A DNA stretch of 24,000 nt from Bacillus fonticola (GCF_012955605.1 NZ_CP052135.1:1972711-1996710); one strand, 5' to 3'. Shown: positions 703 to 15,514, counted from the stretch's first letter. Notes: a model not told the origin generated them from the sequence alone. Program-made: numbers and translations.

Positions 703-2757
703 TTATTTTTCTAATTTGTTATACAACGTACGAACCGAAACGCCTAAAGATTTTGCGGCTTCGGTTTTATTTCCGTTATGTGAAGAAATAGCCGACAATA
801 TGCATTGTGTCTCATAGGCACGGACCCGATTCGCTAAGGTATCCTCTTGAGCTTCAGTATACTGATTAATTGGACTAGCTTTACTAAGACGTGGCATTAG
901 AGTAGGTAGATGGCAAAGCGATAATTTCTGTTCATGAAACTCCATAAAAATCATAGCTCGCCCAATTATATTCTCCAACTCTCTTACATTTCCAGGCCAA
1001 TCGTACGCTCGAAGCTGCTCCAAAACGGCCGGATCAACCTCTTCTACGTTCCGACCGTAGTCTTGATTCAACTTCTCAACGAGGCGTAGTACAAGTGCCG
1101 GTAAGTCTTCTTTTCTTTTTTTCAACGGCGGGATATGGATCGGCATTCGACTTAGACGATAGTACAAGTCTTCCCTAAATCTTCCCGCAGACATTTCTTT
1201 TTCTAGATTTACGTTTGTTGCAGAAATAACACGGACGTCTACCGAAATAGGTTTCGTACCTCCAACGCGAACAATTTCCTTTTCTTGAAGTACTCTTAAT
1301 AATTTTGCCTGCGTATGTAGAGGAAGTTCCCCAATTTCATCTAAGAGAATGGTGCCTTTATCAGCCTCTTCAAAGAAGCCTTTTTTACCGCCGCGAGAGG
1401 CACCTGTGAAGGATCCCTCTTCGTACCCGAACAGTTCACTTTCCAGAAGATGTTCGTGGATAGCCGCGCAATTCACACGAATGAACTTGTTATACTTACG
1501 TTCACTTGCATTATGAATAGCATGGGCAAATAGCTCTTTGCCCGTTCCAGACTCCCCCCGTAATAAAATGGTGGCGGGTGTACGTGCTGCAAGTTTTGCC
1601 TGTTCGATAGCTAACACCATTTCTTCTGCTTCTCCAATAATATCTTCAAACGTATATTTTGCTTCCAAAGAACGAATGATACGGCGTGCCCGATGCAACT
1701 CGGTCGTAAGCGACTGAATCTCCGACATATCGTGGATGACCCCAACGCTTCCCTTTAAAATGCCACCAACGATAATGGGAGCAACGTTTACGATTACCTC
1801 TCGTCGTCTTGGTCCCACCTTCATACGAACTCCACGCATTGGTTTTCGTGTTTGCAACACCTTCAGATGAACACTTTCACCTTCAGATATATCTATCGTG
1901 GCTGGTTTTCCGACAACATCTTTTTCACTAAGACCCGTAATTCTTGTATAAGCAGGATTAATTAACAGACCATTTCCTTTGTCATCAACTACTGTAATCG
2001 CATCATCAGAAGAATGAATGATAGCTTGAAGCATCGTGCGAATCTCTTCTAAATTCGTCACTTGCTCTGCTAATTGAACCACTTCAGTGATATCTTTAAA
2101 AACAGCTACCGCCCCAAACAGTACCCCACGATCATCAATGAGCGGGGTACGTGTAGTCACGATTTTTACTCCATTATGTAAAACAAGCTCTTGATTAGCT
2201 TCGGTTCTCTTCGTTTCCAAAACTCTTGGCAAGCCACTGTCTGGTATAACAGATAGTACATGCTGGTGTTGAACTTCTTGTTCACGTATGCCTACCATAC
2301 GTTGAGCACTTTTGTTTACGTAAAGAACTCTTGCTTGTTCATCGACAACGATCATCCCATCATCTGTTGAGTTGAAAATAAGATCCTGTTTAAACGATTG
2401 ATGTCTAAGAGCTTGGATGAGACCTTCCTTCTCTTCCATTAAGCGGGCTAAAATGTAGGCTACACTACCAGGGATCAACACAGTTCGCTTATGCCTTTTG
2501 TCACGAATGGCGCGAAATACGTCTTCTTTCCCTGTTACCTCTATTACAATGTCTATTTCTTTAGTCAAGAAAGCTTCCCATTCTGTGCCCGTAGAAATGC
2601 CAAGAGAAGCCGCCAGCCTCGTGCCAACGGCGTCTTTTTTGAGATCAATGACCCCCACTACTTGGAACGAGTCGGTTTTCGCTAGCATTTTTAAGATCGA
2701 AGTGCCTCCCTGTCCCGCTCCTACAATGAGTACCTTTTGTTTCATAAGGTGTAGCAC
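703..2757 (-). CDS. bkdR: sigma-54-dependent transcriptional activator, BkdR-like (N-terminal GxGxxG domain, PAS domains, AAA+ sigma-54 interaction domain, C-terminal Fis-type HTH)
   Basis: 684-aa ORF. Walker A is GESGTGKE, and ESELFGYEEGSFTGA corresponds to the GAFTGA sigma-54 contact loop. It also has WPGNVRELEN and a C-terminal NKTEAAKSLGVSVRTLYNKL HTH. The track start is GTG at 2757; an ATG at 2745 (MKQKVLIVGAG...) is an equally plausible start. Confidence 0.85.
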   Translation of the reverse strand: MLHLMKQKVLIVGAGQGGTSILKMLAKTDSFQVVGVIDLKKDAVGTRLAASLGISTGTEWEAFLTKEIDIVIEVTGKEDVFRAIRDKRHKRTVLIPGSVAYILARLMEEKEGLIQALRHQSFKQDLIFNSTDDGMIVVDEQARVLYVNKSAQRMVGIREQEVQHQHVLSVIPDSGLPRVLETKRTEANQELVLHNGVKIVTTRTPLIDDRGVLFGAVAVFKDITEVVQLAEQVTNLEEIRTMLQAIIHSSDDAITVVDDKGNGLLINPAYTRITGLSEKDVVGKPATIDISEGESVHLKVLQTRKPMRGVRMKVGPRRREVIVNVAPIIVGGILKGSVGVIHDMSEIQSLTTELHRARRIIRSLEAKYTFEDIIGEAEEMVLAIEQAKLAARTPATILLRGESGTGKELFAHAIHNASERKYNKFIRVNCAAIHEHLLESELFGYEEGSFTGASRGGKKGFFEEADKGTILLDEIGELPLHTQAKLLRVLQEKEIVRVGGTKPISVDVRVISATNVNLEKEMSAGRFREDLYYRLSRMPIHIPPLKKRKEDLPALVLRLVEKLNQDYGRNVEEVDPAVLEQLRAYDWPGNVRELENIIGRAMIFMEFHEQKLSLCHLPTLMPRLSKASPINQYTEAQEDTLANRVRAYETQCILSAISSHNGNKTEAAKSLGVSVRTLYNKLEK

Positions 2758-3245: not shown

Positions 3246-3989
3246 TTATAAGTTCAAACTTGCGTATACATTTTTTGCTTTTAAAGGATCATCTGTAAAA
3301 ATGGCTGTGCATTGCAAACGAAAAAGTTGTTCCATAACTAGTCTTCGGTTCACAGTATACGGGCGCACAGCTATTCCGTTTTCAATCGTTTCCAAAAGCA
3401 CGTCCTGAGTAAGTGATTTCCAGCTCGGATGAATGCCCCGCGCTCCAAACGACTGAACATACTTCCACGGTTGATGAAGTATTTCTTTATACAGTACAGC
3501 TGTTTCAGCATGTGGATCGATTCGAAGCATATGGGCAAGGCTATCATGATTAAATGATGAGTACACGACACGATCCTCAAGCCCAAAATCCTTGACTTCT
3601 TGAACTACACGTTCCTCTAGGTTTGGATAGAAGATAACAGAGTTCTTTAACTCAATATTACAAAGAAGGTTTGTCGTTTTCAACCACCGAAATACCTCTG
3701 ATAAGGTAGGAATACGTTCACCACTACGTGGAAAAATACGTTTGTTTTTCTTGTCGACAATGCGAAGCTGTGTAAGTTCAACATACGTAAAATCCTTCAC
3801 AAACCCTTTACCATTTGTCGTTCGATTGACTGTTTCATCATGAATTACGACAAGTTCGCCATCCTTTGTCATTTGCACGTCTAACTCAATGCCATCAGCG
3901 CCCTCTTGTTCAGCCCTTTGAAACGACACAAGCGTGTTTTCCGGTTCACGTACACTCGATCCGCGATGTGCAAAAATCAAAGTGCCCAT
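3246..3989 (-). CDS. glycerophosphodiester phosphodiesterase (GDPD/GlpQ-UgpQ family, YqiK-like)
   Basis: FAHRGSSVREPENTLVSFQRAEQEGADGIELDVQMTKDGELVVIHDETVNRTTNG is the canonical GDPD N-terminal catalytic region (HRG...ENT...E.D...HD). The ORF track starts at 3995, but RBS GGAGGG sits 7 nt before the ATG at 3989, so I place the start there. Confidence 0.85.
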   Translation of the reverse strand: MGTLIFAHRGSSVREPENTLVSFQRAEQEGADGIELDVQMTKDGELVVIHDETVNRTTNGKGFVKDFTYVELTQLRIVDKKNKRIFPRSGERIPTLSEVFRWLKTTNLLCNIELKNSVIFYPNLEERVVQEVKDFGLEDRVVYSSFNHDSLAHMLRIDPHAETAVLYKEILHQPWKYVQSFGARGIHPSWKSLTQDVLLETIENGIAVRPYTVNRRLVMEQLFRLQCTAIFTDDPLKAKNVYASLNL

Positions 3990-4051
3990 AAACATTCCCT
4001 CCAGACTACTTCGGTATAGGTGTCGGATCCTTATGCGTCGTCCTTACCCTT

Positions 4052-6584: not shown

Positions 6585-8267
6585 TTATACGTATAAAGTG
6601 GTTTCCAAAAGTTCCTTCGCATGATCCTTCGTCGCTTTTGTTACATCAGCACCACTCATCATACGGGCAATTTCTTCGACTCGATCGGTTTTAGAAAGTG
6701 GCGAAATCGTTGTATACGTTCTTTTATCTCTATACGCCTTTTGAATCAAGTAATGACAGTTAGCACGTGCTGCTACTTGAGGAAGGTGGGTAATACAAAG
6801 CACTTGACCAAACGAGGCGAGGTAACTAATTTTATCCGCCATTGCTTGTGCTACTCGCCCACTTACCCCAGTATCTACTTCGTCAAAAAGAATGGATACC
6901 GCTGCCTGATGCTGACGGAACACAAGTTTTAACGCCAACATGAACCGCGACAGTTCACCCCCCGACGCTACTTTTGACAAGGGCTTTAATGGCTCTCCAA
7001 GGTTCGCACTAAACAAAATATCACACGTATATGCGCCATCCGCTTGGAACTCGTTACTTCCTGATCGCTTCTCAAACTGGACTTCAATACGTGTTCTTTC
7101 CATATAGAGATCCTGGAGGTGAGCGTGTACTTGTTCTGTTAGCGCTCGTGCACACCGGTTTCGCTCTGCATGAAGGACTTGTGCTTCTAAGACGAGCTCT
7201 TCTTCGACATCCGCTAATTCCTTTTGAAAGCGAGCAATATGACTTTCTCGATTTTCAAGCGACTCTAACTCTTCTTCAATCTTTGAAGCATACTCTAGCA
7301 TTTCTTCTACAGTTGGACCATATTTTTTTTCAAGGCGCTGTAATTCTGCCAAGCGACTTTCCACTTCATTTAGCCTATTTTCATCATAAACAAGATCGTC
7401 TAACAAATGTCGAATCGTTGAGCATTCTTCCTCTAAAGTGTAAAAGGCGTCCGCCACTTTATTATACGTGCTTTTATACGTATCGGAAACGGACTGGACA
7501 TGTTCCAACTGGGAAAGAGACAACCCGACCCAATCCAACCCTTTTTGTTCCCCTTGCAACGCATCATAAGCAGCCTGCAACCCTTTATATAGTTGTTCGT
7601 AGTTAGCTAACTGATCTCTTTCTTGCAGCAAAGCCTCTTCTTCTCCAAGCTGCAGGTTCGCTCCACTAAGCTCGTCAGCTTGATATTTTAAAATATCAAG
7701 ACGCTGTGCTGTTTCTTGTTCGTTTCTTGATAAATCAGCAAGCTTTCGCTTCACACTCACATACGTTCGATACGTCTCACCGTATGTACGCTTCGCTTCG
7801 AATAGTTTCTCAGAACCGAATGAATCTAACAAGGTTAGATGGTGTTTTCGGTCAAGAAGCTGCTGCGTATCGTGTTGCCCATGAACATCAAGCAGACTTT
7901 GACCCACTTCACGTAAGGTGGAAATGGTGACAAGCTTGCCATTAATGCGACACACACTTTTCCCTGTAGCAAAGAGATCTCGTCTTATCACAAGCATCTC
8001 TTCGTCAATTGGAAGACCAAATTCTTGCAAACGGTTCAAGACAGGATGTTTCGGATCGACGTAAAAAAGACCTTCTAATTCTGCTTTGTCTGTACCATGA
8101 CGAACAAAGTCTTGAGAGCCTCTTCTTCCTGCTAGCAGTAAAATAGCATCTATTACGATGGATTTACCTGCACCGGTTTCACCAGTTAATGCCGTCAGAC
8201 CCTCTTGAAACGAAACCGTCAATTCATCAATTATGGCAAAATCCTTAATGGACAATTGTCCTAACAT
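6585..8267 (-). CDS. recN: DNA repair protein RecN (SMC-like ATPase)
   Basis: 560 aa. N-terminal Walker A GETGAGKS in LSIKDFAIIDELTVSFQEGLTALTGETGAGKSIVIDAI, a long coiled-coil middle, and C-terminal signature SGGELSRFMLALK plus Walker B ILFDEVDTGVSG. Confidence 0.95.
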   Translation of the reverse strand: MLGQLSIKDFAIIDELTVSFQEGLTALTGETGAGKSIVIDAILLLAGRRGSQDFVRHGTDKAELEGLFYVDPKHPVLNRLQEFGLPIDEEMLVIRRDLFATGKSVCRINGKLVTISTLREVGQSLLDVHGQHDTQQLLDRKHHLTLLDSFGSEKLFEAKRTYGETYRTYVSVKRKLADLSRNEQETAQRLDILKYQADELSGANLQLGEEEALLQERDQLANYEQLYKGLQAAYDALQGEQKGLDWVGLSLSQLEHVQSVSDTYKSTYNKVADAFYTLEEECSTIRHLLDDLVYDENRLNEVESRLAELQRLEKKYGPTVEEMLEYASKIEEELESLENRESHIARFQKELADVEEELVLEAQVLHAERNRCARALTEQVHAHLQDLYMERTRIEVQFEKRSGSNEFQADGAYTCDILFSANLGEPLKPLSKVASGGELSRFMLALKLVFRQHQAAVSILFDEVDTGVSGRVAQAMADKISYLASFGQVLCITHLPQVAARANCHYLIQKAYRDKRTYTTISPLSKTDRVEEIARMMSGADVTKATKDHAKELLETTLYV

Positions 8268-8282
8268 AAAAGGAGGCCTCCT

Positions 8283-8735
8283 TTATAGCATGTCCAGAAA
8301 GCGGTTTGCGATCACTTCTGTATCTTCAGGAGAACGACAAATAATTAAACAAGTGTCGTCTCCACAAATGGTGCCCAATATTTCTTCCCAATCCAGGTGG
8401 TCTACTAGCGCACCTAAGGCCTGCGCATTGCCTGGCAATGTCTTCATAACAATTAGATGTCCCGCCTTATCCAACCGAACAAATGAATCCATCAGCGAGC
8501 GCTTCAATTTTTGTAGAGGATTAAAGCGCTGATCAGCAGGCAAACTATATTTGTAACGACCGTCCATGAGTGGTACCTTTACCAAATGTAACTCTTTCAT
8601 GTCACGCGAAACCGTTGCTTGTGTCACGGCGAACCCTGCTGCGCGCAATTGTTCAACAAGATCATCCTGTGTTTCAATCTCACGGTTCGTTATAATTTCT
8701 CGAATTTTTATGTGACGCTGTCCTTTACTTAACAC
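8283..8735 (-). CDS. argR: arginine repressor ArgR/AhrC
   Basis: [52 protein letters not shown]...[14 protein letters not shown] is nearly collinear with B. subtilis AhrC as I recall it. The ORF track starts at GTG 8750. However, AAGGTGGAGGG sits there and is positioned 7 nt before the GTG at 8735 (MLSKGQRH...), giving a 150-aa protein like AhrC. Confidence 0.93.
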
Positions 8736-8957
8736 TACTGTTCCCTCCACCTTCGCTCACAAAACGTATACAAGCTCCCATGCTGAAATCATACCACATT
8801 CAAGACGCTGCTAGAAGCGATTTCAGACTCATTAGCCGAACGTTATAAGTTACAGCTATAGTCTCTGTTAAGCAAAACAAAGCTGTTTTCTAAGGGGTTG
8901 TGCTTTTCCAAAGAACCCTCAGCTAGTAGTGGAGATAACCGCTGCAGAAAGAGCAAA

Positions 8958-8989
8958 GCAAAAAGAGTACTTGTTGCAAAGTACTCTTT
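8958..8989 (-). terminator. intrinsic terminator of tlyA
   Basis: An 11-bp stem pairs AAAGAGTACTT with AAGTACTCTTT around a 6-nt loop (8962-8989). On the minus strand it is followed by TTTTTGCTTTGCTCTTT. It begins 8 nt after the tlyA stop. Confidence 0.75.
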
Positions 8990-8996
8990 CAGCATT

Positions 8997-9848
8997 TTAT
9001 CCATCCCGTTTCGGAAAATGTCCATGTGCTTCTTGAACGGTGTCGACTATTTTTTGTTGTTCCGCTTCGTCTAAAACTAGCTCTACATCATCTGAAAAGT
9101 CATTGTCAGGTGTTTCACAATACAGCAGGAATTCAATATTCCCATCTCCGCCAGTGATAGGGGAATACGTGAGACCCTGTATAGAAAATCCTAACTGTTT
9201 GGCAAAAGACAACAGCTCGACCAGCACTTGCTTGTGAACAGAAGCATCCCTCACAATTCCTTTCTTCCCAACGGATTGTTTTCCTGCCTCAAACTGCGGT
9301 TTTACAAGTAAAACACACGGTGACATCGGCTCAGCAATGGCACGAAGCGGCGGGAGGATGTGTCGCAAGGAAATAAACGACACGTCTGCAGTTGCCAAGT
9401 TCGGTCTAGGCCCGTTAAAATCCTCACGAGTAGCATGGCGAAAATTCGTTTTCTCCATAACTGTTACACGCGCATCACTTCGCAGCTTCCAATCCAACTG
9501 GTTCGTTCCAACATCTACAGCATAAGAATGGCTGGCACCGTTTTGGAGGGCACAATCAGTAAATCCACCAGTAGAAGAACCAACATCTAATAAAACTCTA
9601 TCTGTAAGATCCAAAGAAAAATAAGTAATCGCTTTTTCTAGCTTATATCCGCCTCGACTTACGAAAGGGTTCGGATTCCCTTTGACACGTAAAAGGGAAG
9701 AAGACGGAATCTTCTCCCCAGGTTTATCAACACGTGTCTCTTTGTGAAACACAAGCCCGGCCATAATGGCGCGCTTTGCTTTTTCACGAGTCGGAAAATG
9801 CCCTTGTTCGACGAGTAGAGTGTCGACACGTATTTTTGATTCCTTCAT
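8997..9848 (-). CDS. tlyA: TlyA-family rRNA 2'-O-methyltransferase (S4 domain + FtsJ-like methyltransferase; YqxC-like)
   Basis: The N-terminal S4-like RNA-binding region is RVDTLLVEQGHFPTREKAKRAIMAGLV. The SAM-binding motif is VLLDVGSSTGGFTDCALQNGA...AVDVG. The start ATG overlaps the dxs stop by 1 nt (TAATG). Confidence 0.9.
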   Translation of the reverse strand: MKESKIRVDTLLVEQGHFPTREKAKRAIMAGLVFHKETRVDKPGEKIPSSSLLRVKGNPNPFVSRGGYKLEKAITYFSLDLTDRVLLDVGSSTGGFTDCALQNGASHSYAVDVGTNQLDWKLRSDARVTVMEKTNFRHATREDFNGPRPNLATADVSFISLRHILPPLRAIAEPMSPCVLLVKPQFEAGKQSVGKKGIVRDASVHKQVLVELLSFAKQLGFSIQGLTYSPITGGDGNIEFLLYCETPDNDFSDDVELVLDEAEQQKIVDTVQEAHGHFPKRDG

Positions 9849-11743
9849 TAGAGGAACGCTCTTTTCTGTTTCGATTGAACGAGTTGTTGTGCTGTTTCTA
9901 CAGCGTCGTCCACTGTAAGACCGATATCCTCTAAAAGCTTCCCGACACTTCCATGCTCGATAAACTGATCGGGGATTCCCATTCGCCGGATTGGTACATT
10001 TACGCCACGGTCTGAAGCGTACTCAACAATAGCACTCCCGAAACCACCTTGTAAAACGGCCTCCTCCATCGTAATGATTGGCACATTTTCTTTGAACAAC
10101 TGCGCCAACATCGCTTCGTCTAGCGGTTTAATAAAACGGGAATTGATGACACGAGCAGAAATACCTTGCGATTGCAAATTGTCTGCTGCTGCTTCAGCCA
10201 TTTGTACCATAGGCCCCACAGCGAGAAATGCGACATCGCTTCCCTCTCGCACCACTTCCCATGTACCGATCTGGATTTGCTGCAACTCCTCATCTAAAGG
10301 AACCCCGATGCCATTTCCACGCGGAAAACGCATCGCAATTGGACCTGCATTGTATTGTAAGGCTGTATAAACTAAATGTTGTCCTTCATTCTCATCCTTT
10401 GGCATCATTAATACCATGTTCGGAAGGTGTCGTAAAAAGGCAATATCGAACACCCCTTGATGCGTTTCTCCATCAGCCCCAACGAGTCCAGAACGATCAA
10501 TGCCGATAAAAACATTTAAATTTTGCCTACAAATATCATGAACAACTTGATCATACGCACGCTGTAGGAAGGTTGAGTAAATCGCTAAAAACGGCTTCAT
10601 ACCTTGAGTGGCAAGACCTGCAGCAGTCGTTGCCGCATGCTGCTCTGCAATACCTACGTCATACATGCGATCAGGGAATTCCTTTGCAAACCCTTCCAGC
10701 TTAGATCCTACAGGCATTGCCGGTGTAATCGCCACGACACGACGATCTTCTCGTGCTACTTTGAGAACAGTTTCACTTACAAGTGCACTCCAGCCTGGTG
10801 CTCCGGGCTTTGGCTTCACGAAGTCACCGGAGTCGATTTTATATGGCCCGGTACCGTGCCACGTACCAATCGTGTCATTTTCTGCAGGCTTATAACCTTT
10901 GCCTTTTTTCGTAATCGTATGTAACAAGACAGGTCCCTTTGTTTTCTTTGCATAAGCTAAGTTTTCAAATAAGTCTTCATACGAATGTCCATCCACAGGG
11001 CCAAGATACGTAAACCCAAGCTCCTCAAAAAACATGCCTGAGATGAACAAATATTTCAAGCTATCTTTCACACGTTCAGCAGTTTTGGCCATTTTCCCCC
11101 CAACAGCCGGGACCTTTTTCAATAAATAATCTAATTCGTCTTTTACCCAGTGGTATTTCCCTGCTGTACGCAACTTGCCAAGGACATTATGAAGAGCACC
11201 TACGTTAGGCGCAATGGACATTTCATTATCATTTAAAATAACGATCATATCTTTTTGTTCATGCCCAATATGGTTCAGTGCTTCTAGAGCCATTCCACCA
11301 GTTAATGCACCATCACCGATGACAGGCAGAATATAGGAGGATTCTTTTTTGACATCGCGAGCAATTGCCATACCCATAGCTGCAGAGAGACTTGTTGAAC
11401 TATGACCTGTTTCCCATACATCGTGTTCGCTTTCATTTCGTTTCGGAAATCCGCACAGACCTTGGTATTCTCGGAGGCTGCCAAAATCCTGTGCACGTCC
11501 AGTCAAAATCTTGTGTACATACGATTGGTGTCCAACATCCCATAAGATTTTATCTTTCGGACTGTCGAACATTTTATGAAGCGCGACTGTAAGTTCCACA
11601 ACGCCTAGATTGGGACCGATGTGACCACCTGTAACAGAGCACTTTTCAATAAGAAATCGGCGAATTTCCTCACTAAGTGCCTCAAGTTCGCTCATGTTCA
11701 TGTTCTTTAAAAAAGAAGGATTCTGAATCGATGTAAGATCCAT
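9848..11743 (-). CDS. dxs: 1-deoxy-D-xylulose-5-phosphate synthase
   Basis: [59 protein letters not shown]...[15 protein letters not shown] is the typical Dxs N-terminus. The TPP-binging motif [15 protein letters not shown] is present. The ORF track extends 33 codons further to 11842, but that extension overlaps the upstream gene and has no homology. I place the start at ATG 11743. Confidence 0.95.
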
Positions 11744-11754
11744 CCTAATACAAC

Positions 11755-12360
11755 TCACTTTCTTTTCTTTTTCCTGTTCTTTATTTTCGGATCTACAAGC
11801 ACTGTTATATAAAATCGTTCCTCTAGCAACTGAAGAACGCACCCTACTCTTAGAATAATGTTTTTAGAAAATTTAATAGCAATCGTTTTCCCTAATGCTT
11901 TCCCTCCCACAGTAAGTGCTGCGATGAAGCTTGTTAACAGCACATTCAGCCCGTCTTCAAGAGAGGCATTGTTCCCTTCTTGTATTGAATGGGTTAACGT
12001 AACTATGACAGTTGCTGAAGCTGCCCCTGAAATAATACCCGAAATATCCCCAATCACATCGTTACAAAAACTAGAAAATCGATCAGCATTTTTTACAATT
12101 CTGAGACTATGCTTTGCACCGTACACTTTCCTTGACGCCATCGCGTGAAAGGGAGATTCGTCGGCAGCCGCTGCTGCCATCCCCATCATATCAAATACTA
12201 CACCGATTAAGACGATAATGAATACGACCCCTAAACCCAACGTCCAAGTTAAACTGCCTAGCAACGTGTTGGAAATCATTGAAAAAAGAGCCGCTAACAC
12301 GAACGTGATAACGGCGATACTCATACTCCATTTCAGCGAGGTAAGAATGACTTTTTTCAT
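11755..12360 (-). CDS. oapA: four-TM membrane protein, candidate OLE-associated protein A (OapA)
   Basis: 201 aa (about 21-22 kDa). Four predicted TM helices: [70 protein letters not shown] and [20 protein letters not shown]. The C-terminal tail is strongly basic ([10 protein letters not shown]). It lies immediately downstream of the large noncoding region and upstream of dxs, the described position of oapA in B. halodurans. Assignment rests on context and topology, not on an alignment. Confidence 0.72.
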
Positions 12361-13039
12361 TTATGGGTCATACTCCAGTACTATGTGAAATTATAGGAAA
12401 TAGAAGACAAACGTCTTCCTCCAGTTATTCTCTTCTCTTAGATTTTGAATGGTCACATGAAGAGGTAATCTTACGGCTTAGGTCCAGTAGGATTTCCCAC
12501 CCTTCCACCTGATGTCACCATACAGGCGGTTCCCCTTTCAGGAAGAGTTAGCGTCGTTGCCGATCACTAGACTGGATTGCCACTTAGTCCGTACCACAAC
12601 TCCCTACATGCTTCAAATTGAACAGTCTAGGAGTTTTCCTCGGGCAGTTCTTACCGTAAATTAGCCTATTTTGCAAAATAGGGAGCGCATGGTCAAGTAT
12701 ATCATCACAAAGGTGGCCACCTTTTGATGTTGATCCATGCTCCTCACAACGGTTTTGCGCAAGGCAGGCTGCGCTCTGAACTTTCAATCCCCATTTGTAA
12801 AGTACAGCGCATCTATGACCCGTAATCTTCGGGGTCTTTAGTACCCTTGAGTGGATTTTTAGCCCCACCTTCCAATACGGAGAACCGACTAGAATACTGC
12901 ACCATCCAATTTGCATAAAAGTATACCACACCCGAAAAACTGTGTCACTTTTCACGGCAAAGTTGTGGTAAAAAAACCACCATTATCCTTTTTTTCACAA
13001 AGCAACAATCCTCAGGAAAATACATGACAGCACGCAGGT
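12361..13039 (-). ncRNA. ole: OLE (ornate, large, extremophilic) RNA candidate; exact 5'/3' ends undetermined within this gap (described RNA is roughly 600 nt)
   Basis: This is a 679-nt gap with no credible ORF inside a tightly packed co-directional operon. The order ispA / gap / 4-TM protein / dxs matches the described ole-oapA locus. Minus-strand stem-loops are dense: 12403-12418 (GAAGAC/GUCUUC), 12665-12682 (18-nt perfect palindrome CCUAUUUUGCAAAAUAGG), 12703-12729 (13-bp stem around AAAGGUGGCCACCUUU), 12757-12774 (GCGCA/UGCGC), 12817-12836 (GACCC/GGGUC) and 12965-12980 (GUGGU-U-rich loop-ACCAC). A possible long-range pairing joins 12841-12854 to 12580-12594. No terminator or promoter separates it from ispA. 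Confidence 0.8.
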
Positions 13040-13927
13040 TCAATTCTGCCTGTTTTGAATAAGTTGAGCTAAGTACATCAGTTCGTTACTTTTTACCTTC
13101 GCTTCCTCCAAAGCTCTTAGTGCCGCGACTACCTCTTCATGCAGGTGGGCCTTCGCTCCCTCAAGACCAAGGAGCCCTGGATAGGTACTTTTCTCGTTCA
13201 CCATGTCACTGCCTATATTTTTACCAAGCGTTCTGGCATTCCCTTCCACATCTAAAATGTCGTCTTGAATTTGAAAGGCCAGGCCGAGGTGATGACTGAA
13301 GAGTACGAGCGCTTCCTTTTGCGTAATTTCAGCCTCAGCTAGAATGCAGCCTGCCTCCACAGCATATGTAAGAAGCCTTCCTGTTTTTTTACGATGAATG
13401 GCTTGAAGTTCATCCACTAAGACAGTCCGTTTTTCAGCTTCCATATCTTCTATTTGTCCTGCCACCATCCCTTGTGCTCCAGCGGCATCTGAAAAAGCAG
13501 AAATAAGTTGCACTTTTTGAGCATCAGTTACCTCAGCTTGCGCCACTAAAGAAAAACCCTGTGTGAGAAGGGCATCACCTGCAAGAATCGCAGTCGCTTC
13601 TCCGAATACCTTATGGTTTGTGGGCTTCCCTCGACGTAAATCATCGTCATCCATACTCGGAAGGTCATCGTGTATTAACGAATACGTATGAATCATCTCT
13701 AACGCAGCGGCTACAGGGATGGATTGTTCGATCTGTTTACCCAGTGCTTTCACAGTGGCTAATAAAAGTAAAGGGCGAATGCGCTTCCCCCCCGCTTGCA
13801 AACTATAGAGCATTGCCTTTTGGAGGGAGGAAGGAGTTGTTAAACTTTGAACGTGTTCTAACATAAAACGTTCTGTTTGTTCCTTCCATTCTTGTAGCGT
13901 TTGTTCAGTTTTTTTAACTGATGTCAC
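13040..13927 (-). CDS. ispA: farnesyl diphosphate synthase (polyprenyl synthetase)
   Basis: The first aspartate-rich motif is LIHDDLPSMDDDDLRRGKPTNH and the second is FQIQDDILD. GTG start overlaps the xseB stop (GTGA). Confidence 0.93.
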   Translation of the reverse strand: MTSVKKTEQTLQEWKEQTERFMLEHVQSLTTPSSLQKAMLYSLQAGGKRIRPLLLLATVKALGKQIEQSIPVAAALEMIHTYSLIHDDLPSMDDDDLRRGKPTNHKVFGEATAILAGDALLTQGFSLVAQAEVTDAQKVQLISAFSDAAGAQGMVAGQIEDMEAEKRTVLVDELQAIHRKKTGRLLTYAVEAGCILAEAEITQKEALVLFSHHLGLAFQIQDDILDVEGNARTLGKNIGSDMVNEKSTYPGLLGLEGAKAHLHEEVVAALRALEEAKVKSNELMYLAQLIQNRQN

Positions 13928-14163
13928 GAGTTTTCCCCCTCATCAAGGTCAAACTTCACAGTCTCTCCGTCTTTTCCAACCACTTCAACAAGTTGTTTTT
14001 CCGCTTTTTGAAGTTGGTCATGGCAAAATTGAGAGTATTCCATTCCTTTTTTATAGTAAGACAACGCTTTTTCAAGTGGGACATCACCAGCTTCTAGATG
14101 CTCAACGATTTTCTCTAATTTTTGTAACGCTTCTTCAAAGGTTAAGGTACTTTCCTCACTCAT
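13924..14163 (-). CDS. xseB: exodeoxyribonuclease VII small subunit
   Basis: 79 aa. LTFEEALQKLEKIVEHLEAGDVPLEKALSYYKKGMEYSQFCHDQLQKAEKQL is the typical XseB helical hairpin. It overlaps the xseA end by 8 nt. Confidence 0.9.
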   Translation of the reverse strand: MSEESTLTFEEALQKLEKIVEHLEAGDVPLEKALSYYKKGMEYSQFCHDQLQKAEKQLVEVVGKDGETVKFDLDEGENS

Positions 14164-15514
14164 CGTCTTTCTTCCCCTCTCTATCCACGAACTGAACTTC
14201 TGTTATTATCGTTCCATCTGTAACGGAAAGATTAATTGTATCCCCTTGCTGTACTTGGGTCGTCTTAGAAAGAACTTTCCCGTCTTCTGTATAAGTGACT
14301 GTATAACCACGCTTTAACACAGCCAATGGGTTCAACGTCTCTAATTTAGAAAGAACTTGTCCAAACTGTTCACTACTACTATCTACTTGACGTCGACTTA
14401 CGCGATGTATTGCCTTTTCCACTTGTTCCAAAGTTTGTCGCTTTCGTTCCACGAGCTTATCTAATCTTACGCGCCGTAAACGTGCCTGAATGTCGTGTTG
14501 CCGTAGTGCCTTCCACTGAATAGTGCTCTTCATATCCTTTACTAACTTTTCCTTCAAGCGATCTAACACAAGCATCTTCTCTTCTATAAGGCGCCCTGGA
14601 TTTCGATACGCATAAGAGGAGATAGCACGTTTAAGCCGAGCTTCATCCAGTGAGACTTTTTGCTGTATGGACTTGGTCAACCTTACGTTCCACTGACGTA
14701 AAGCCGCCAGCACCTCCGTGTGATGAGGAACAGCAATCTCTGCGGCGGCTGTTGGAGTCGGTGCACGTTTGTCTGCAACGAAGTCAGCAATTGTTACATC
14801 GGTTTCGTGACCGACTGCCGAAATAATAGGAACATGACTTTGAAAAATGGCAGTAGCGACTTCTTTTTCATTAAACGCCCATAACTCTTCTATAGAACCA
14901 CCACCACGTCCAACGATGCATACGTCCACTTTTTGATCATTGGCTCGCTGTATCCCCTCAACAATAGACACCTTCGCACGATCTCCTTGGACAAGTACCG
15001 GAAATAAAAGCACACGGGCTTGTGGGAAGCGACGATCTAGTGTCGTAATGATATCTCTTATGGCTGCTCCAGTAGGTGACGTAACAACCCCCACTGTCAT
15101 CGGAAATCGTGGCAATGGCTTTTTACGAGCTTCGGAAAACCATCCTTGTTGCTGCAACGTTTCCTTTAACTGCTCATAGGCAACGTATAAGGCTCCAATT
15201 CCGTCTGGTTCCATCCCACTCGCGTACAGTTGATACGTTCCTGACTTTTCAAAAAGAGATACACGGGCTTCCACAATCACCTGCATACCTTCTTCGGGAG
15301 TGAATTTTAGACTTTGCACGTTCTTTTGGAACATGACTGCTTGAATACGTGCTCCGCTATCCTTGAGTGTGAAGTACATATGCCCACTAGAATGAAGCTT
15401 TACATTAGAGCATTCTCCTTTTACGAAGATGCGCTGAAGGTGTGGGTCACGTTCGAATTTTTGCTTTATGTACATTGTAAGCGCTTTAACTGTCAATACA
15501 CGCTGATTGGACAA
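14156..15514 (-). CDS. xseA: exodeoxyribonuclease VII large subunit
   Basis: 452 aa. LTVKALTMYIKQKFERDPHLQRIFVKGECSNVKLHSSGHMYFTLKD (OB fold), GVVTSPTGAAIRDIITTLDRRFP, and IVGRGGGSIEELWAFNEKEVATAIFQSHVPIISAVGHETDVTIADFVAD. This is collinear with B. subtilis XseA as I recall it. TTG start follows RBS AAGGA. Confidence 0.93.
   Translation of the reverse strand: MSNQRVLTVKALTMYIKQKFERDPHLQRIFVKGECSNVKLHSSGHMYFTLKDSGARIQAVMFQKNVQSLKFTPEEGMQVIVEARVSLFEKSGTYQLYASGMEPDGIGALYVAYEQLKETLQQQGWFSEARKKPLPRFPMTVGVVTSPTGAAIRDIITTLDRRFPQARVLLFPVLVQGDRAKVSIVEGIQRANDQKVDVCIVGRGGGSIEELWAFNEKEVATAIFQSHVPIISAVGHETDVTIADFVADKRAPTPTAAAEIAVPHHTEVLAALRQWNVRLTKSIQQKVSLDEARLKRAISSYAYRNPGRLIEEKMLVLDRLKEKLVKDMKSTIQWKALRQHDIQARLRRVRLDKLVERKRQTLEQVEKAIHRVSRRQVDSSSEQFGQVLSKLETLNPLAVLKRGYTVTYTEDGKVLSKTTQVQQGDTINLSVTDGTIITEVQFVDREGKKDDE

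What the first reader, a model, noticed from the sequence alone, without database searches (positions are those of the whole stretch)
12361..13039. Large ORF-free structured region between ispA and dxs: candidate OLE RNA
Genes in this string are otherwise separated by 0-130 nt, and several stop/start codons overlap. Here there are 679 nt with no credible coding potential. The only ORF (12584-12955) is W/C/H/G-rich, has no RBS and resembles no protein I recognise. The minus strand is packed with local helices: two perfect palindromes of 16 and 18 nt, plus at least four other 5-7 bp stem-loops and one plausible long-range pairing. No promoter or terminator separates it from ispA, which implies co-transcription followed by processing. 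The order ispA / RNA / 4-TM protein / dxs, inside an xseA-xseB...tlyA-argR-recN string, is the genomic setting described for OLE RNA in B. halodurans and other extremophilic or anaerobic Firmicutes. OLE is one of the largest highly structured bacterial ncRNAs. It has been linked to tolerance of short-chain alcohols, cold and Mg2+ stress, but its biochemical role is unresolved, so this is the most valuable locus in the window.
Basis: partly seen in the sequence, partly recalled or inferred. Interest (0 to 1): 0.9.

Follow-up and report, generated by a model that had tools for sequence, protein, structure and literature searches.

The report
Unusually compact OLE RNA gene
The gene-free gap between ispA and dxs does encode an OLE RNA, a known large membrane-associated bacterial RNA, but this Bacillus fonticola copy is about 130 nucleotides shorter than in 82 relatives and lacks a protein-binding and dimer-contact module that is essential in the model species.

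Summary
Rfam's OLE model matches the minus strand at 12921-12433 (253 bits, gathering score 50, E 6e-71). The next gene encodes the OapA partner protein, and the locus is the classic ispA/ole/oapA/dxs setting in Bacillus fonticola, a deep-sea cold-seep isolate. One sub-claim is wrong: the RNA has its own conserved extended -10 promoter (12948-12920), as shown experimentally in B. halodurans. The unexpected part is the architecture. The distance from the P4 loop to the base of P9 is 84 nt, against 192-265 nt in all 82 relatives. Missing are the J4a/5 strand and all of P5/P5.1, the interior of P6, and one of the P7/P8 hairpins. That removes the strand shared by both OapC k-turns, the bS21 site and dimer bridge B2. 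The P9 loop whose adenosines dock on inner P6 is also rewritten. Everything else is kept and under selection: 158 of 169 conserved columns, 22 compensatory pairs, and 71-83% identity where four-fold sites are 35% identical. Three sequence sources carry the identical RNA. Verdict: a genuine OLE RNA, already a known family, in a variant more reduced than the two published ones. No expression data exist here.

The parts
12943..12948 (-). -35-like hexamer GTGACA of the ole proximal promoter
   Evidence: 5 of 6 match, 17-nt spacer. 49 of 82 relatives have a -35 match of at least 4 of 6 in register.
12920..12928 (-). Extended -10 box TGgTATACT; predicted transcription start near 12913, a few nt before P1
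   Evidence: A -10 match of at least 5 of 6 lies 12-31 nt upstream of GTGCAG in 82 of 82 relatives, and 65 of 82 have the TGn extension. Corresponds to the promoter tested in B. halodurans.
12433..12921 (-). OLE RNA (Rfam RF01071 match); P1-to-P1 structural core is 12909-12445
   Evidence: 253.3 bits, E 6.4e-71, model 1-616. MFE z = -2.83. P1 strands at 12901-12909 and 12445-12453.
12874..12886 (-). P3/P3.1 5' strands (GGUUCU, CCGUA). Partners are at 12646-12660. This is the proposed membrane-spanning helix, about 11-12 bp
   Evidence: Read from the sequence. Role taken from Lyon and Breaker 2025.
12850..12869 (-). P4 hairpin with the A-rich loop CUAAAAAUCC (dimer bridge B1)
   Evidence: exact anchor. 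B1 residues A45, A47 and A48 in Kretsch 2025 map to this loop.
12771..12840 (-). Remodelled 70-nt segment that replaces the roughly 180-250-nt J4a/5-P5-P6-P7-P8 module
   Evidence: Model positions 83-139 and 242-277 are absent and the P6 interior is absent. P4-loop to P9-base distance is 84 nt against 192-265 nt in 82 of 82 relatives.
12817..12836 (-). P6 stub hairpin GACCC-cgaagauuac-GGGUC. It is flanked by UAAA on the 5' side and AUA-GA on the 3' side, a possible substitute k-turn (hypothesis)
   Evidence: folds as predicted. The k-turn reading is my inference from the sequence.
12771..12810 (-). Single hairpin in the P7/P8 position (GCGCU..ACUUU-loop-AAAGU..AGCGC)
   Evidence: Rfam aligns it to P7. 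Homology to P7 or to P8 is ambiguous.
12664..12765 (-).
   Evidence: B3 is G315-C318 (GGCC) in Kretsch 2025.
12681..12692 (-). P9 3'-strand internal loop changed from the conserved UGAAA to GCGCU
   Evidence: UGAAA is kept in 82 of 84 relatives. Its adenosines (A345, A346) dock on inner P6 in the cryo-EM structure.
12665..12682 (-). 18-nt perfect palindrome CCUAUUUUGCAAAAUAGG: a local hairpin that competes with the base of P9 and the conserved CAAAA(G)AGG element
   Evidence: The MFE and centroid folds choose the local hairpin.
12765..12771 (-). CAGCCUG, a candidate OapA contact (YAGNCUR-type) at the P4a 3' strand. The second copy, UAGACUG, is at 12623-12629 in the P2 3' strand
   Evidence: for the positions. 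The motif is recalled from Block 2011, which I could not read. The review says only 'palindromic sequences in or near P2 and P4a'.
12549..12569 (-). P13 hairpin UAGUG-A-UCG[GCAA]CGA-CGCUA: the OapB primary site, with a GNRA loop and a 1-nt bulge. P14.1 with a GUGA loop is at 12507-12527
   Evidence: Site definition from Yang 2021.
12402..12419 (-). Hairpin GGAAGACguuuGUCUUCU followed by AUUUCC: a weak terminator or 3'-end-protecting hairpin between ole and oapA
   Evidence: -10.7 kcal/mol, z = -2.7. Some relatives have a hairpin or terminator here and many have none.
12965..12981 (-). Small hairpin GGUGG-uuuuuuu-ACCAC between the ispA stop and the ole promoter; significance unclear
   Evidence: -6.7 kcal/mol, z = -2.1. 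No U-tract follows it on the minus strand.
11755..12360 (-). oapA: 201-aa membrane partner of OLE RNA
   Evidence: 100% identical to a B. fonticola hypothetical protein, with 5075 homologues; 60 invariant columns in the 27-sequence alignment that includes this protein; 22 of 27 family members weakly match CNNM PF01595; hydrophobic segments, DVIGD motif, basic C-terminal tail.
12584..12955 (-). Spurious 123-codon ORF overlapping the RNA

Best explanation
The interval holds the ole gene of Bacillus fonticola. Shown here at sequence level: an extended -10 sigma-A-type promoter (12948-12920) lies just upstream of an RNA of about 470-510 nt on the minus strand, and that RNA matches the OLE covariance model. 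It keeps P1-P4a, the full P9 arm and all of domain 2 (P10-P15). The next gene is oapA. Taken from work on H. halodurans and Clostridium OLE RNAs: the RNA is abundant and stable, is bound by the membrane protein OapA at sites flanking P3, is tethered to (possibly inserted through) the membrane, dimerises, binds OapB on P13/P12.2, and helps cells tolerate cold, short-chain alcohols, excess Mg2+ and poor carbon sources. Its chemistry remains unknown. Inferred here: this copy is a functional but stripped-down OLE. It has lost the J4a/5 strand with P5/P5.1, the interior of P6, and one of P7/P8. So it cannot form k-turn 1a or 1b (the OapC site), has no bS21 site, and cannot make dimer bridge B2. It would rely on the L4 A-A contact (B1) and the GGCC kissing loop (B3) to dimerise. 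The P9 loop that normally docks on inner P6 has been converted into ordinary base pairs, consistent with the whole tertiary network having been removed as a unit.
For: Family identity: 253.3 bits, E 6.4e-71, full model. Synteny with oapA. Compaction: the only aberrant inter-anchor distance is 70 nt against a median of 204.5 nt; P4 loop to P9 base is 84 nt against 192-265 nt in 82 of 82 relatives; relatives score 457-535 bits over 586-677 nt; the nearest OapA relatives are full-length. Not an artefact: the 800 nt are identical in two other assemblies that differ elsewhere. Under selection: 158 of 169 columns that are at least 97% conserved are kept outside the segment. On a consensus built from relatives only, 71 pairs are identical, 22 are compensatory on both sides and 8 changed on one side but still pair. 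Core identity to L133 is 83% and 71%, against 35% at 301 four-fold sites. OapA matches all 60 invariant columns of the 27-sequence alignment that includes it. Promoter. Lost sites mapped from the literature: OapC k-turn, bS21, bridges and the A345/A346-P6 contact. The P9 loop change is specific to this RNA. OapB site intact.
Against: There are no expression, localisation or phenotype data for this organism. The deleted k-turn is essential in H. halodurans, where the C85A mutation behaves like a deletion of ole. This RNA also departs from relatives at 11 conserved columns outside the deletion (relatives: median 0, maximum 13). It has 12% non-canonical consensus pairs against at most 7% in relatives, partly from misalignment. 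MFE folding prefers the local palindrome hairpin over the base of canonical P9. I could not inspect the rest of the genome for oapB, oapC, mpfA or a second ole copy. By score alone this RNA might already sit in Fernando and Breaker's 'variant 2' bin.
Confidence: 0.85

Rival explanations
1. A decaying OLE remnant: the RNA lost an essential module and is drifting towards a pseudogene, while oapA persists for another reason.
For: Elements essential in H. halodurans are lost. More substitutions at conserved columns and more broken consensus pairs than any relative. A competing palindrome hairpin sits at the base of P9. Fernando and Breaker mention rare apparently defective ole genes.
Against: Those defective genes were seen in organisms lacking OapA, whereas OapA here is intact. 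The core is 71-83% identical to a relative where neutral sites are saturated at 35%. There are 22 double-sided compensatory pairs, including 7 consecutive ones in one helix. The promoter is kept in register. The deletions leave clean helical stubs and are matched by a rewrite of the P9 docking loop. All domain-2 blocks are intact.
Confidence: 0.1
2. One reading: no dedicated promoter, with the RNA made only by read-through from ispA and then processed.
For: No strong terminator follows ispA on the minus strand. In H. halodurans some OLE is co-transcribed with its neighbours.
Against: GTGACA-17-TGgTATACT lies immediately upstream. A -10 box is present at this position in 82 of 82 relatives and is extended in 65 of 82. 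In B. halodurans the proximal promoter raises expression more than 100-fold, and 5' RACE ends lie at the start of P1.
Confidence: 0.08
3. The interval encodes the 123-aa protein of the ORF at 12584-12955.
For: The ORF exists.
Against: No Pfam or NCBIfam match. The ORF is not conserved in 66 relatives (median 44, maximum 84 codons). It lies wholly within a covariance-model match at E 6e-71.
Confidence: 0.01
4. The short form is an assembly error or a deletion that arose in a laboratory strain.
For: Only one species carries it in the data I could reach.
Against: An ENA metagenome contig and a Logan run assembly are identical over the 800 nt, although both differ from the window elsewhere (100 and 186 ungapped mismatches in 6.6 kb). 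The change consists of several separate deletions plus substitutions, not one clean gap.
Confidence: 0.03

Closest known systems
Full-length OLE RNA (Rfam RF01071; H. halodurans C-125 ole and Bacillaceae relatives)
   Same: Same locus (ispA-ole-oapA-dxs), same proximal promoter, same conserved blocks, P1-P4a, P9 and P10-P15, OapB site, L4 and GGCC loops.
   Different: Lacks J4a/5, P5/P5.1, inner P6 and one of P7/P8, about 134 nt in all. The P9 UGAAA loop is rewritten. 253 bits against 457-535 bits.
OLE 'variant 2' (Fernando and Breaker 2024; common in RF39)
   Same: A reduced domain 1 and a score in a comparable low range.
   Different: Variant 2 is described as lacking P7 and P8 only, and is typical of gut symbionts with reduced genomes that largely lack OapB and OapC. 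Here P5 and inner P6 are also gone, one P7/P8-position hairpin is kept, and the host is a cultured, spore-forming Bacillaceae.
OLE 'variant 1' (TANB77)
   Same: Shortened peripheral stems.
   Different: Variant 1 has a shorter P9 and often lacks the OapB site on P13. Here P9 has normal length (88 nt between anchors) and P13 is intact.
C. acetobutylicum OLE dimer (cryo-EM, PDB 9MCW, Kretsch 2025)
   Same: Keeps the residues of bridges B1 (L4) and B3 (GGCC), plus the A57-type adenosines and the G269-C365-type pair.
   Different: Lacks the residues of bridge B2 (L5, L6), one strand of the tandem sheared G-A pairs of the k-turn (G71/A72), and both sides of the A345/A346-P6 contact.
OapA, and the CNNM transmembrane domain of MpfA-type Mg2+ transporters
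   Same: A syntenic 201-aa membrane protein with a DxxxD motif and a basic C-terminal tail. Family members weakly match PF01595.
   Different: This protein itself matches no Pfam or NCBIfam model at E 0.01 or below. It has no CBS or CorC domains.

Membership tests
OLE RNA (RF01071) | Covariance-model match above the curated gathering score | tested here: met
   253.3 bits against 50; E 6.4e-71; model 1-616; not truncated.
OLE RNA (RF01071) | Highly conserved sequence blocks (about 25% of positions more than 97% conserved) | tested here: met
   158 of 169 columns that are at least 97% conserved are identical outside the remodelled segment.
OLE RNA (RF01071) | Conserved base-paired architecture maintained by covariation | tested here: met
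   Of 115 ungapped consensus pairs, 101 are standard pairs and 22 carry double-sided changes.
OLE RNA (RF01071) | Immediately upstream of oapA, in a Bacillota host from an extreme or anaerobic habitat | tested here: met
   oapA starts 72 nt after the match. [quoted passage not shown]
OLE RNA (RF01071) | Abundant, stable transcript localised to the membrane in an RNP | not testable with these tools
   Only the promoter can be assessed.
Full-length OLE class (Fernando and Breaker 2024) | P5/P5.1, P6, P7 and P8 present, with the conserved J4a/5 k-turn strand | tested here: not met
   Model positions 83-139 and 242-277 are absent and the P6 interior is replaced by a 10-nt loop.
OLE variant 2 (Fernando and Breaker 2024) | Lacks P7 and P8 entirely but keeps the rest of domain 1 | tested here: not met
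   One P7/P8-position hairpin is retained, while P5 and inner P6 are lost.
OLE variant 1 (Fernando and Breaker 2024) | Shortened P7, P8 and P9; the OapB site on P13 is often missing | tested here: not met
   P9 spacing is 88 nt, equal to the median. P13 has a GCAA loop and a 1-nt bulge.
OapC-binding OLE (k-turn 1a/1b) | J4a/5 bulged strand (AUC-GAU-GA) at the base of P5, pairing with J5/6 plus the P6 shoulder, or with J6/7 | tested here: not met
   The strand is deleted. A different k-turn-like arrangement at the P6 stub is possible but untested.
OapB-binding OLE | [quoted passage not shown] | tested here: met
   UAGUG-A-UCG[GCAA]CGA-CGCUA at 12569-12549.
OapA | Small four-helix membrane protein encoded directly downstream of ole, with conserved acidic and basic motifs | tested here: met
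   52-68% identical to the syntenic proteins beside full-length OLE RNAs. 60 columns are invariant across the 27-sequence alignment that includes this protein. Three strong hydrophobic segments and one weaker one, DVIGD, and a [10 protein letters not shown] tail.
OapA | CNNM/DUF21-like transmembrane fold | tested here: inconclusive
   This protein has no Pfam hit. 22 of 27 family members hit PF01595, best E 3.2e-6. No structure was predicted.

The most novel reading that the evidence does not exclude
B. fonticola carries a functional, naturally minimised OLE RNA that works without the P5/P6 hub. That means no OapC k-turn 1a/1b, no bS21 site, no dimer bridge B2 and no P6-P9 A-minor contact. On this reading the indispensable core of the OLE particle is P1-P4a, the P9 arm and domain 2, together with OapA (and probably OapB). 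The joint loss of inner P6 and of the P9 UGAAA loop would be evolutionary support for the contact seen by cryo-EM. A less likely sub-reading (about 0.2) is that OapC binding is rescued by a rebuilt k-turn, with GACCC/GGGUC as the C helix, an AUA bulge, and G.A and A.A pairs.
Probability: 0.55. Interest if true: 0.6.

Novelty: new variant of a known kind. Interest (0 to 1): 0.5.

Why it matters
OLE RNA is one of the largest conserved bacterial RNAs whose biochemical function is still unknown. Current models centre on its dimer, its passage through the membrane and its set of protein partners. Here a cultivable, free-living Bacillus has removed the P5/P6 hub cleanly while keeping everything else under selection. 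That hub carries two protein sites and one of the three dimer bridges, and it is essential in H. halodurans. This amounts to a ready-made deletion mutant made by evolution. It shows which parts can be dispensed with in at least one genetic background. It gives a smaller RNA for structural work. It also offers a direct test, by cross-species complementation, of whether OapC and bS21 binding belong to the core mechanism or are lineage-specific regulation. If instead the RNA turns out to be inactive, the locus is simply another annotated OLE.

Tried and rejected
(1) A metagenome scan for other compact OLEs using CTAAAAATN{4,10}AAGGGN{45,75}AGCCTGCC returned 50 stretches, none with further OLE anchors. 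(2) Pfam and NCBIfam on the 201-aa protein gave no hit; its identity rests on homology and synteny. (3) The inverted-repeat finder missed the palindromes and helices, so I found them by script. (4) Global alignment of the 70-nt segment to the 194-nt module of L133 gives a meaningless 89% because gaps are free, so I discarded it. Whether the retained hairpin is P7 or P8 stays open. (5) I considered that GGGUCAUAGAUG might be a displaced copy of P4a plus J4a/5 (GGGCACAUCGAUG; 11 of 15 identical). The stretch is too short to decide, and in that register the k-turn GA would read GC. (6) Block 2011, which mapped the OapA sites, is not held, so the YAGNCUR motif is from memory. (7) The C. acetobutylicum sequence in the supplement is OCR-damaged (564 of 609 nt), so residues were mapped by local landmarks rather than one offset. 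(8) The missing P5/P6 module is not encoded elsewhere in the window. (9) The strain comparison gave no test of selection: SNPs are absent from the whole 3.3 kb from xseA to oapA, not only from the RNA.

Full report
OBSERVATION. The 679-nt interval between oapA (11755-12360) and ispA (13040-13927) is real and is the largest gap in a gene string that otherwise has spacings from -8 to 283 nt. The 123-codon ORF at 12584-12955 exists but matches no Pfam or NCBIfam family. It is not conserved: the longest same-strand ORF in the corresponding region of 66 relatives has a median of 44 codons and a maximum of 84.

IDENTITY. Rfam's OLE model (RF01071) matches the minus strand at 12921-12433 with 253.3 bits against a gathering score of 50. 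The E-value is 6.4e-71, the match covers model positions 1-616, and OLE is the only Rfam family found in the window. The 489-nt RNA folds better than all 100 dinucleotide shuffles (z = -2.83).

The flanking genes are FPP synthase (NF045485, 393 bits), dxs (TIGR00204, 959 bits), tlyA, xseB and xseA. The wider window is the spoIIIA-accBC-asp23-nusB-folD-xseAB-ispA-[ole-oapA]-dxs-tlyA-argR-recN-spoIVB-spo0A region.

The 201-aa protein downstream of the RNA is 100% identical to a Bacillus fonticola hypothetical protein. [quoted passage not shown] The protein is 52-68% identical to the proteins in the same position beside OLE RNAs in 80 other Bacillaceae loci. In the 27-sequence alignment that includes it, 60 columns are invariant. 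It has three strong hydrophobic segments and one weaker one, a DVIGD motif and a Lys/Arg-rich C-terminus. Of 27 family members, 22 weakly match the CNNM transmembrane domain. This is OapA as the literature describes it.

TRANSCRIPTION. That is not supported. GTGACA-17 nt-TGgTATACT lies at 12948-12920 and ends where the Rfam match begins. All 82 relatives have a -10 match of at least 5 of 6 positioned 12-31 nt upstream of the GTGCAG core. In 65 of them it carries the TGn extension, and 49 have a -35 match of at least 4 of 6. Wallace et al. 2012 showed in B. halodurans that this proximal promoter raises OLE expression more than 100-fold and that 5' RACE ends lie at the start of P1. The predicted start here is near 12913, just before P1 (12909-12901, pairing with 12453-12445). 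Read-through from ispA is not excluded. A modest hairpin with a weak U-tract (12419-12402; -10.7 kcal/mol, z = -2.7) lies between the RNA and oapA. Relatives vary at this position, from clear terminators to nothing.

THE UNEXPECTED PART: A COMPACT ARCHITECTURE. I used nine invariant sequence blocks as anchors. Every inter-anchor distance in the window equals that of its relatives except one. Between AAGGGNAC (P4a 5' strand) and AGCCUGCCU (P4a 3' strand and base of P9) there are 70 nt, against a median of 204.5 nt (range 179-251, n = 46). Re-measured without the variable anchor, the distance from the P4 loop to the base of P9 is 84 nt, against 192-265 nt in all 82 relatives. The core is 428 nt against 525-616 nt.

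Sixteen relatives scanned with Rfam score 457-535 bits over 586-677 nt. The two nearest OapA relatives, Bacillus sp. AK031 and B. salacetis, are full-length.

The cmscan alignments and the raw sequences show what is missing:
- Model positions 83-139: the J4a/5 strand AUCGAUGAAG and all of P5/P5.1 with its GCCCA loop.
- The interior of P6, including the AAUGGCAU loop. It is replaced by a 10-nt loop on a 5-bp stub (12836-12817).
- Model positions 242-277: the linker and P8.

One hairpin remains in the P7/P8 position (12810-12771).

The short form is not an assembly error. An ENA metagenome contig and a Logan run assembly are identical to the window over the 800 nt around the RNA. Both are different strains, with 100 and 186 ungapped mismatches over 6.6 kb, all of them downstream of 12104.

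WHAT THE LOST PARTS DO ELSEWHERE.
- In B. halodurans the OapC (YbxF) k-turn uses nucleotides 83-96 and 136-147. A single mutation there (C85A) abolishes binding and behaves like a deletion of ole.
- Both published k-turn versions, 1a and 1b, share the J4a/5 strand. bS21 binds P6.
- In the C. acetobutylicum cryo-EM dimer the three intermolecular bridges are L4-L4 (B1), L5-L6 with L7 stacking (B2), and the GGCC loop of P9.3 (B3). The sheared G.A pairs of the k-turn are G71/A72 with G177/A178.
- I mapped those residues onto the published sequence by local landmarks. The window keeps the B1 and B3 loops and lacks both B2 loops and the G71/A72 strand.

The supplement also lists A345/A346 making an A-minor contact and a ribose zipper with G135-C166 and C165. 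These are the adenosines of the P9 internal loop UGAAA docking on inner P6. UGAAA is kept in 82 of 84 relatives. In the window it reads GCGCU and can pair with the opposite strand. So both sides of that tertiary contact have gone together, which points to coherent remodelling rather than random damage.

IS THE REMAINDER STILL FUNCTIONAL? Outside the remodelled segment the window keeps 158 of 169 columns that are at least 97% conserved among relatives. On a consensus structure computed from relatives only, 71 pairs are identical, 22 are changed on both sides and still pair (including 7 consecutive pairs of one helix), 8 are changed on one side and still pair, and 14 are not standard pairs. Several of those 14 look like MAFFT register errors in P3 and around the deletion.

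Against the nearest relative, four-fold degenerate sites in oapA, dxs and ispA are 35% identical (n = 301), which is saturated. The OLE core is 83% identical in the 5' part and 71% in the 3' part.

Domain 2 is complete. P13 has a GCAA tetraloop and the single-nucleotide bulge that define the OapB site, and P14.1 has a GUGA loop. P3/P3.1, the proposed membrane-spanning helix, still sums to about 11-12 bp. Two YAGNCUR-type elements at P2 and P4a are present, but that motif is from my memory of Block 2011, which I could not read.

Points against: this RNA is more divergent at conserved positions than most relatives (11 mismatches outside the segment; relatives have a median of 0 and a maximum of 13). 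In addition, the 18-nt palindrome forms a local hairpin that thermodynamic folding prefers to the base of canonical P9.

COMPARISON WITH KNOWN VARIANTS. Fernando and Breaker (2024) describe three classes: full-length OLE; variant 1, with short P7, P8 and P9 and often no OapB site; and variant 2, with no P7 or P8. The variants occur mainly in the TANB77 and RF39 gut symbionts, which have reduced genomes and largely lack OapB and OapC. The 2025 review places the common variation between J6/7 and P8.

The present RNA fits none of these. P9 and P13 are normal, one P7/P8-position hairpin is kept, and the loss extends 5' through P6 and P5 to J4a/5. The host is a cultured, spore-forming Bacillaceae (spo0A, spoIVB and spoIIIA are in the window). 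By score alone it might fall into their variant 2 bin (235-310 bits on their model). I therefore cannot say they never saw it, only that this architecture is not described in the papers I could search.

A SPECULATION. The P6 stub is flanked by UAAA on its 5' side and by AUA-GA-UG on its 3' side. Read as a k-turn, GACCC/GGGUC would be the C helix with a C-G pair next to a 3-nt bulge, followed by G.A and A.A pairs. A.A at that position is rare but known (my recollection of work on Kt-23). This could preserve OapC binding in a new topology. It is inference from a short motif, and I give it about 0.2.

VERDICT. The finding is a genuine OLE RNA gene with its partner oapA. The family and its genomic setting are already known. 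What adds value is that this copy is a more extreme natural reduction than the published variants. It removes a hub that is essential in the model organism, while the rest of the RNA and OapA remain under clear purifying selection.

Noticed in passing
window 12382-12386; relatives L001-L080, about 30-41 nt after the GGGAAAUCCUACUGGACCUAAGCC block: An ACAUA motif lies 5-12 nt after the P1 3' strand in 61 of 81 relatives (67 of 81 within 60 nt; 14 of 81 shuffled tails). It lies at or beyond the 3' edge of the Rfam OLE model. In the window it is displaced about 55 nt downstream by an insert that contains the 12419-12402 hairpin. It may be a 3'-end or processing signal, or part of the oapA leader.
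   Followed up: partly
window 12665-12682: The 18-nt perfect palindrome arises because the UUUUG strand at the base of P9 in this lineage can pair either with the upstream CAAAA (canonical P9) or with the conserved downstream CAAAA of the CAAAA(G)AGG element (a Z-anchor in the cryo-EM structure). MFE folding picks the local hairpin. It could be a structural switch or simply a by-product of compensatory change.
   Followed up: partly
window 8269-8284: A 16-nt perfect palindrome, AAAGGAGGCCTCCTTT, spans the argR stop and the recN start. It contains a GGAGG Shine-Dalgarno sequence and its exact complement, so the recN ribosome-binding site could be sequestered in a hairpin.
   Followed up: no
window 7679-7700: A 22-nt perfect palindrome, CTTGATATTTTAAAATATCAAG, lies inside the recN coding region. 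It is the longest palindrome in the window.
   Followed up: no
window 12360-12374: A four-codon mini-ORF, AUG ACC CAU AAA UGA, has a stop codon that overlaps the oapA AUG (AUGA). The nearest GGAG is 12 nt upstream of the oapA start, which is rather far.
   Followed up: no
window 8755-15360, compared with L081 and L082: Two other B. fonticola-like assemblies show no differences from the window between 15360 and 12104 (xseA to the first part of oapA) but dozens of SNPs in dxs and tlyA. This suggests a recombination boundary inside or near oapA.
   Followed up: partly
window 9848-11842: The mechanical ORF for dxs (664 aa, GTG start) overlaps oapA by 88 nt. The gene as called in other assemblies starts at the ATG at 11743 (631 aa), 11 nt after the oapA stop.
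   Followed up: yes
window 703-2757: A sigma-54-dependent activator with PAS domains, together with a GDPD phosphodiesterase (3246-3995), lies just beyond spo0A at the edge of the conserved gene string.
   Followed up: no
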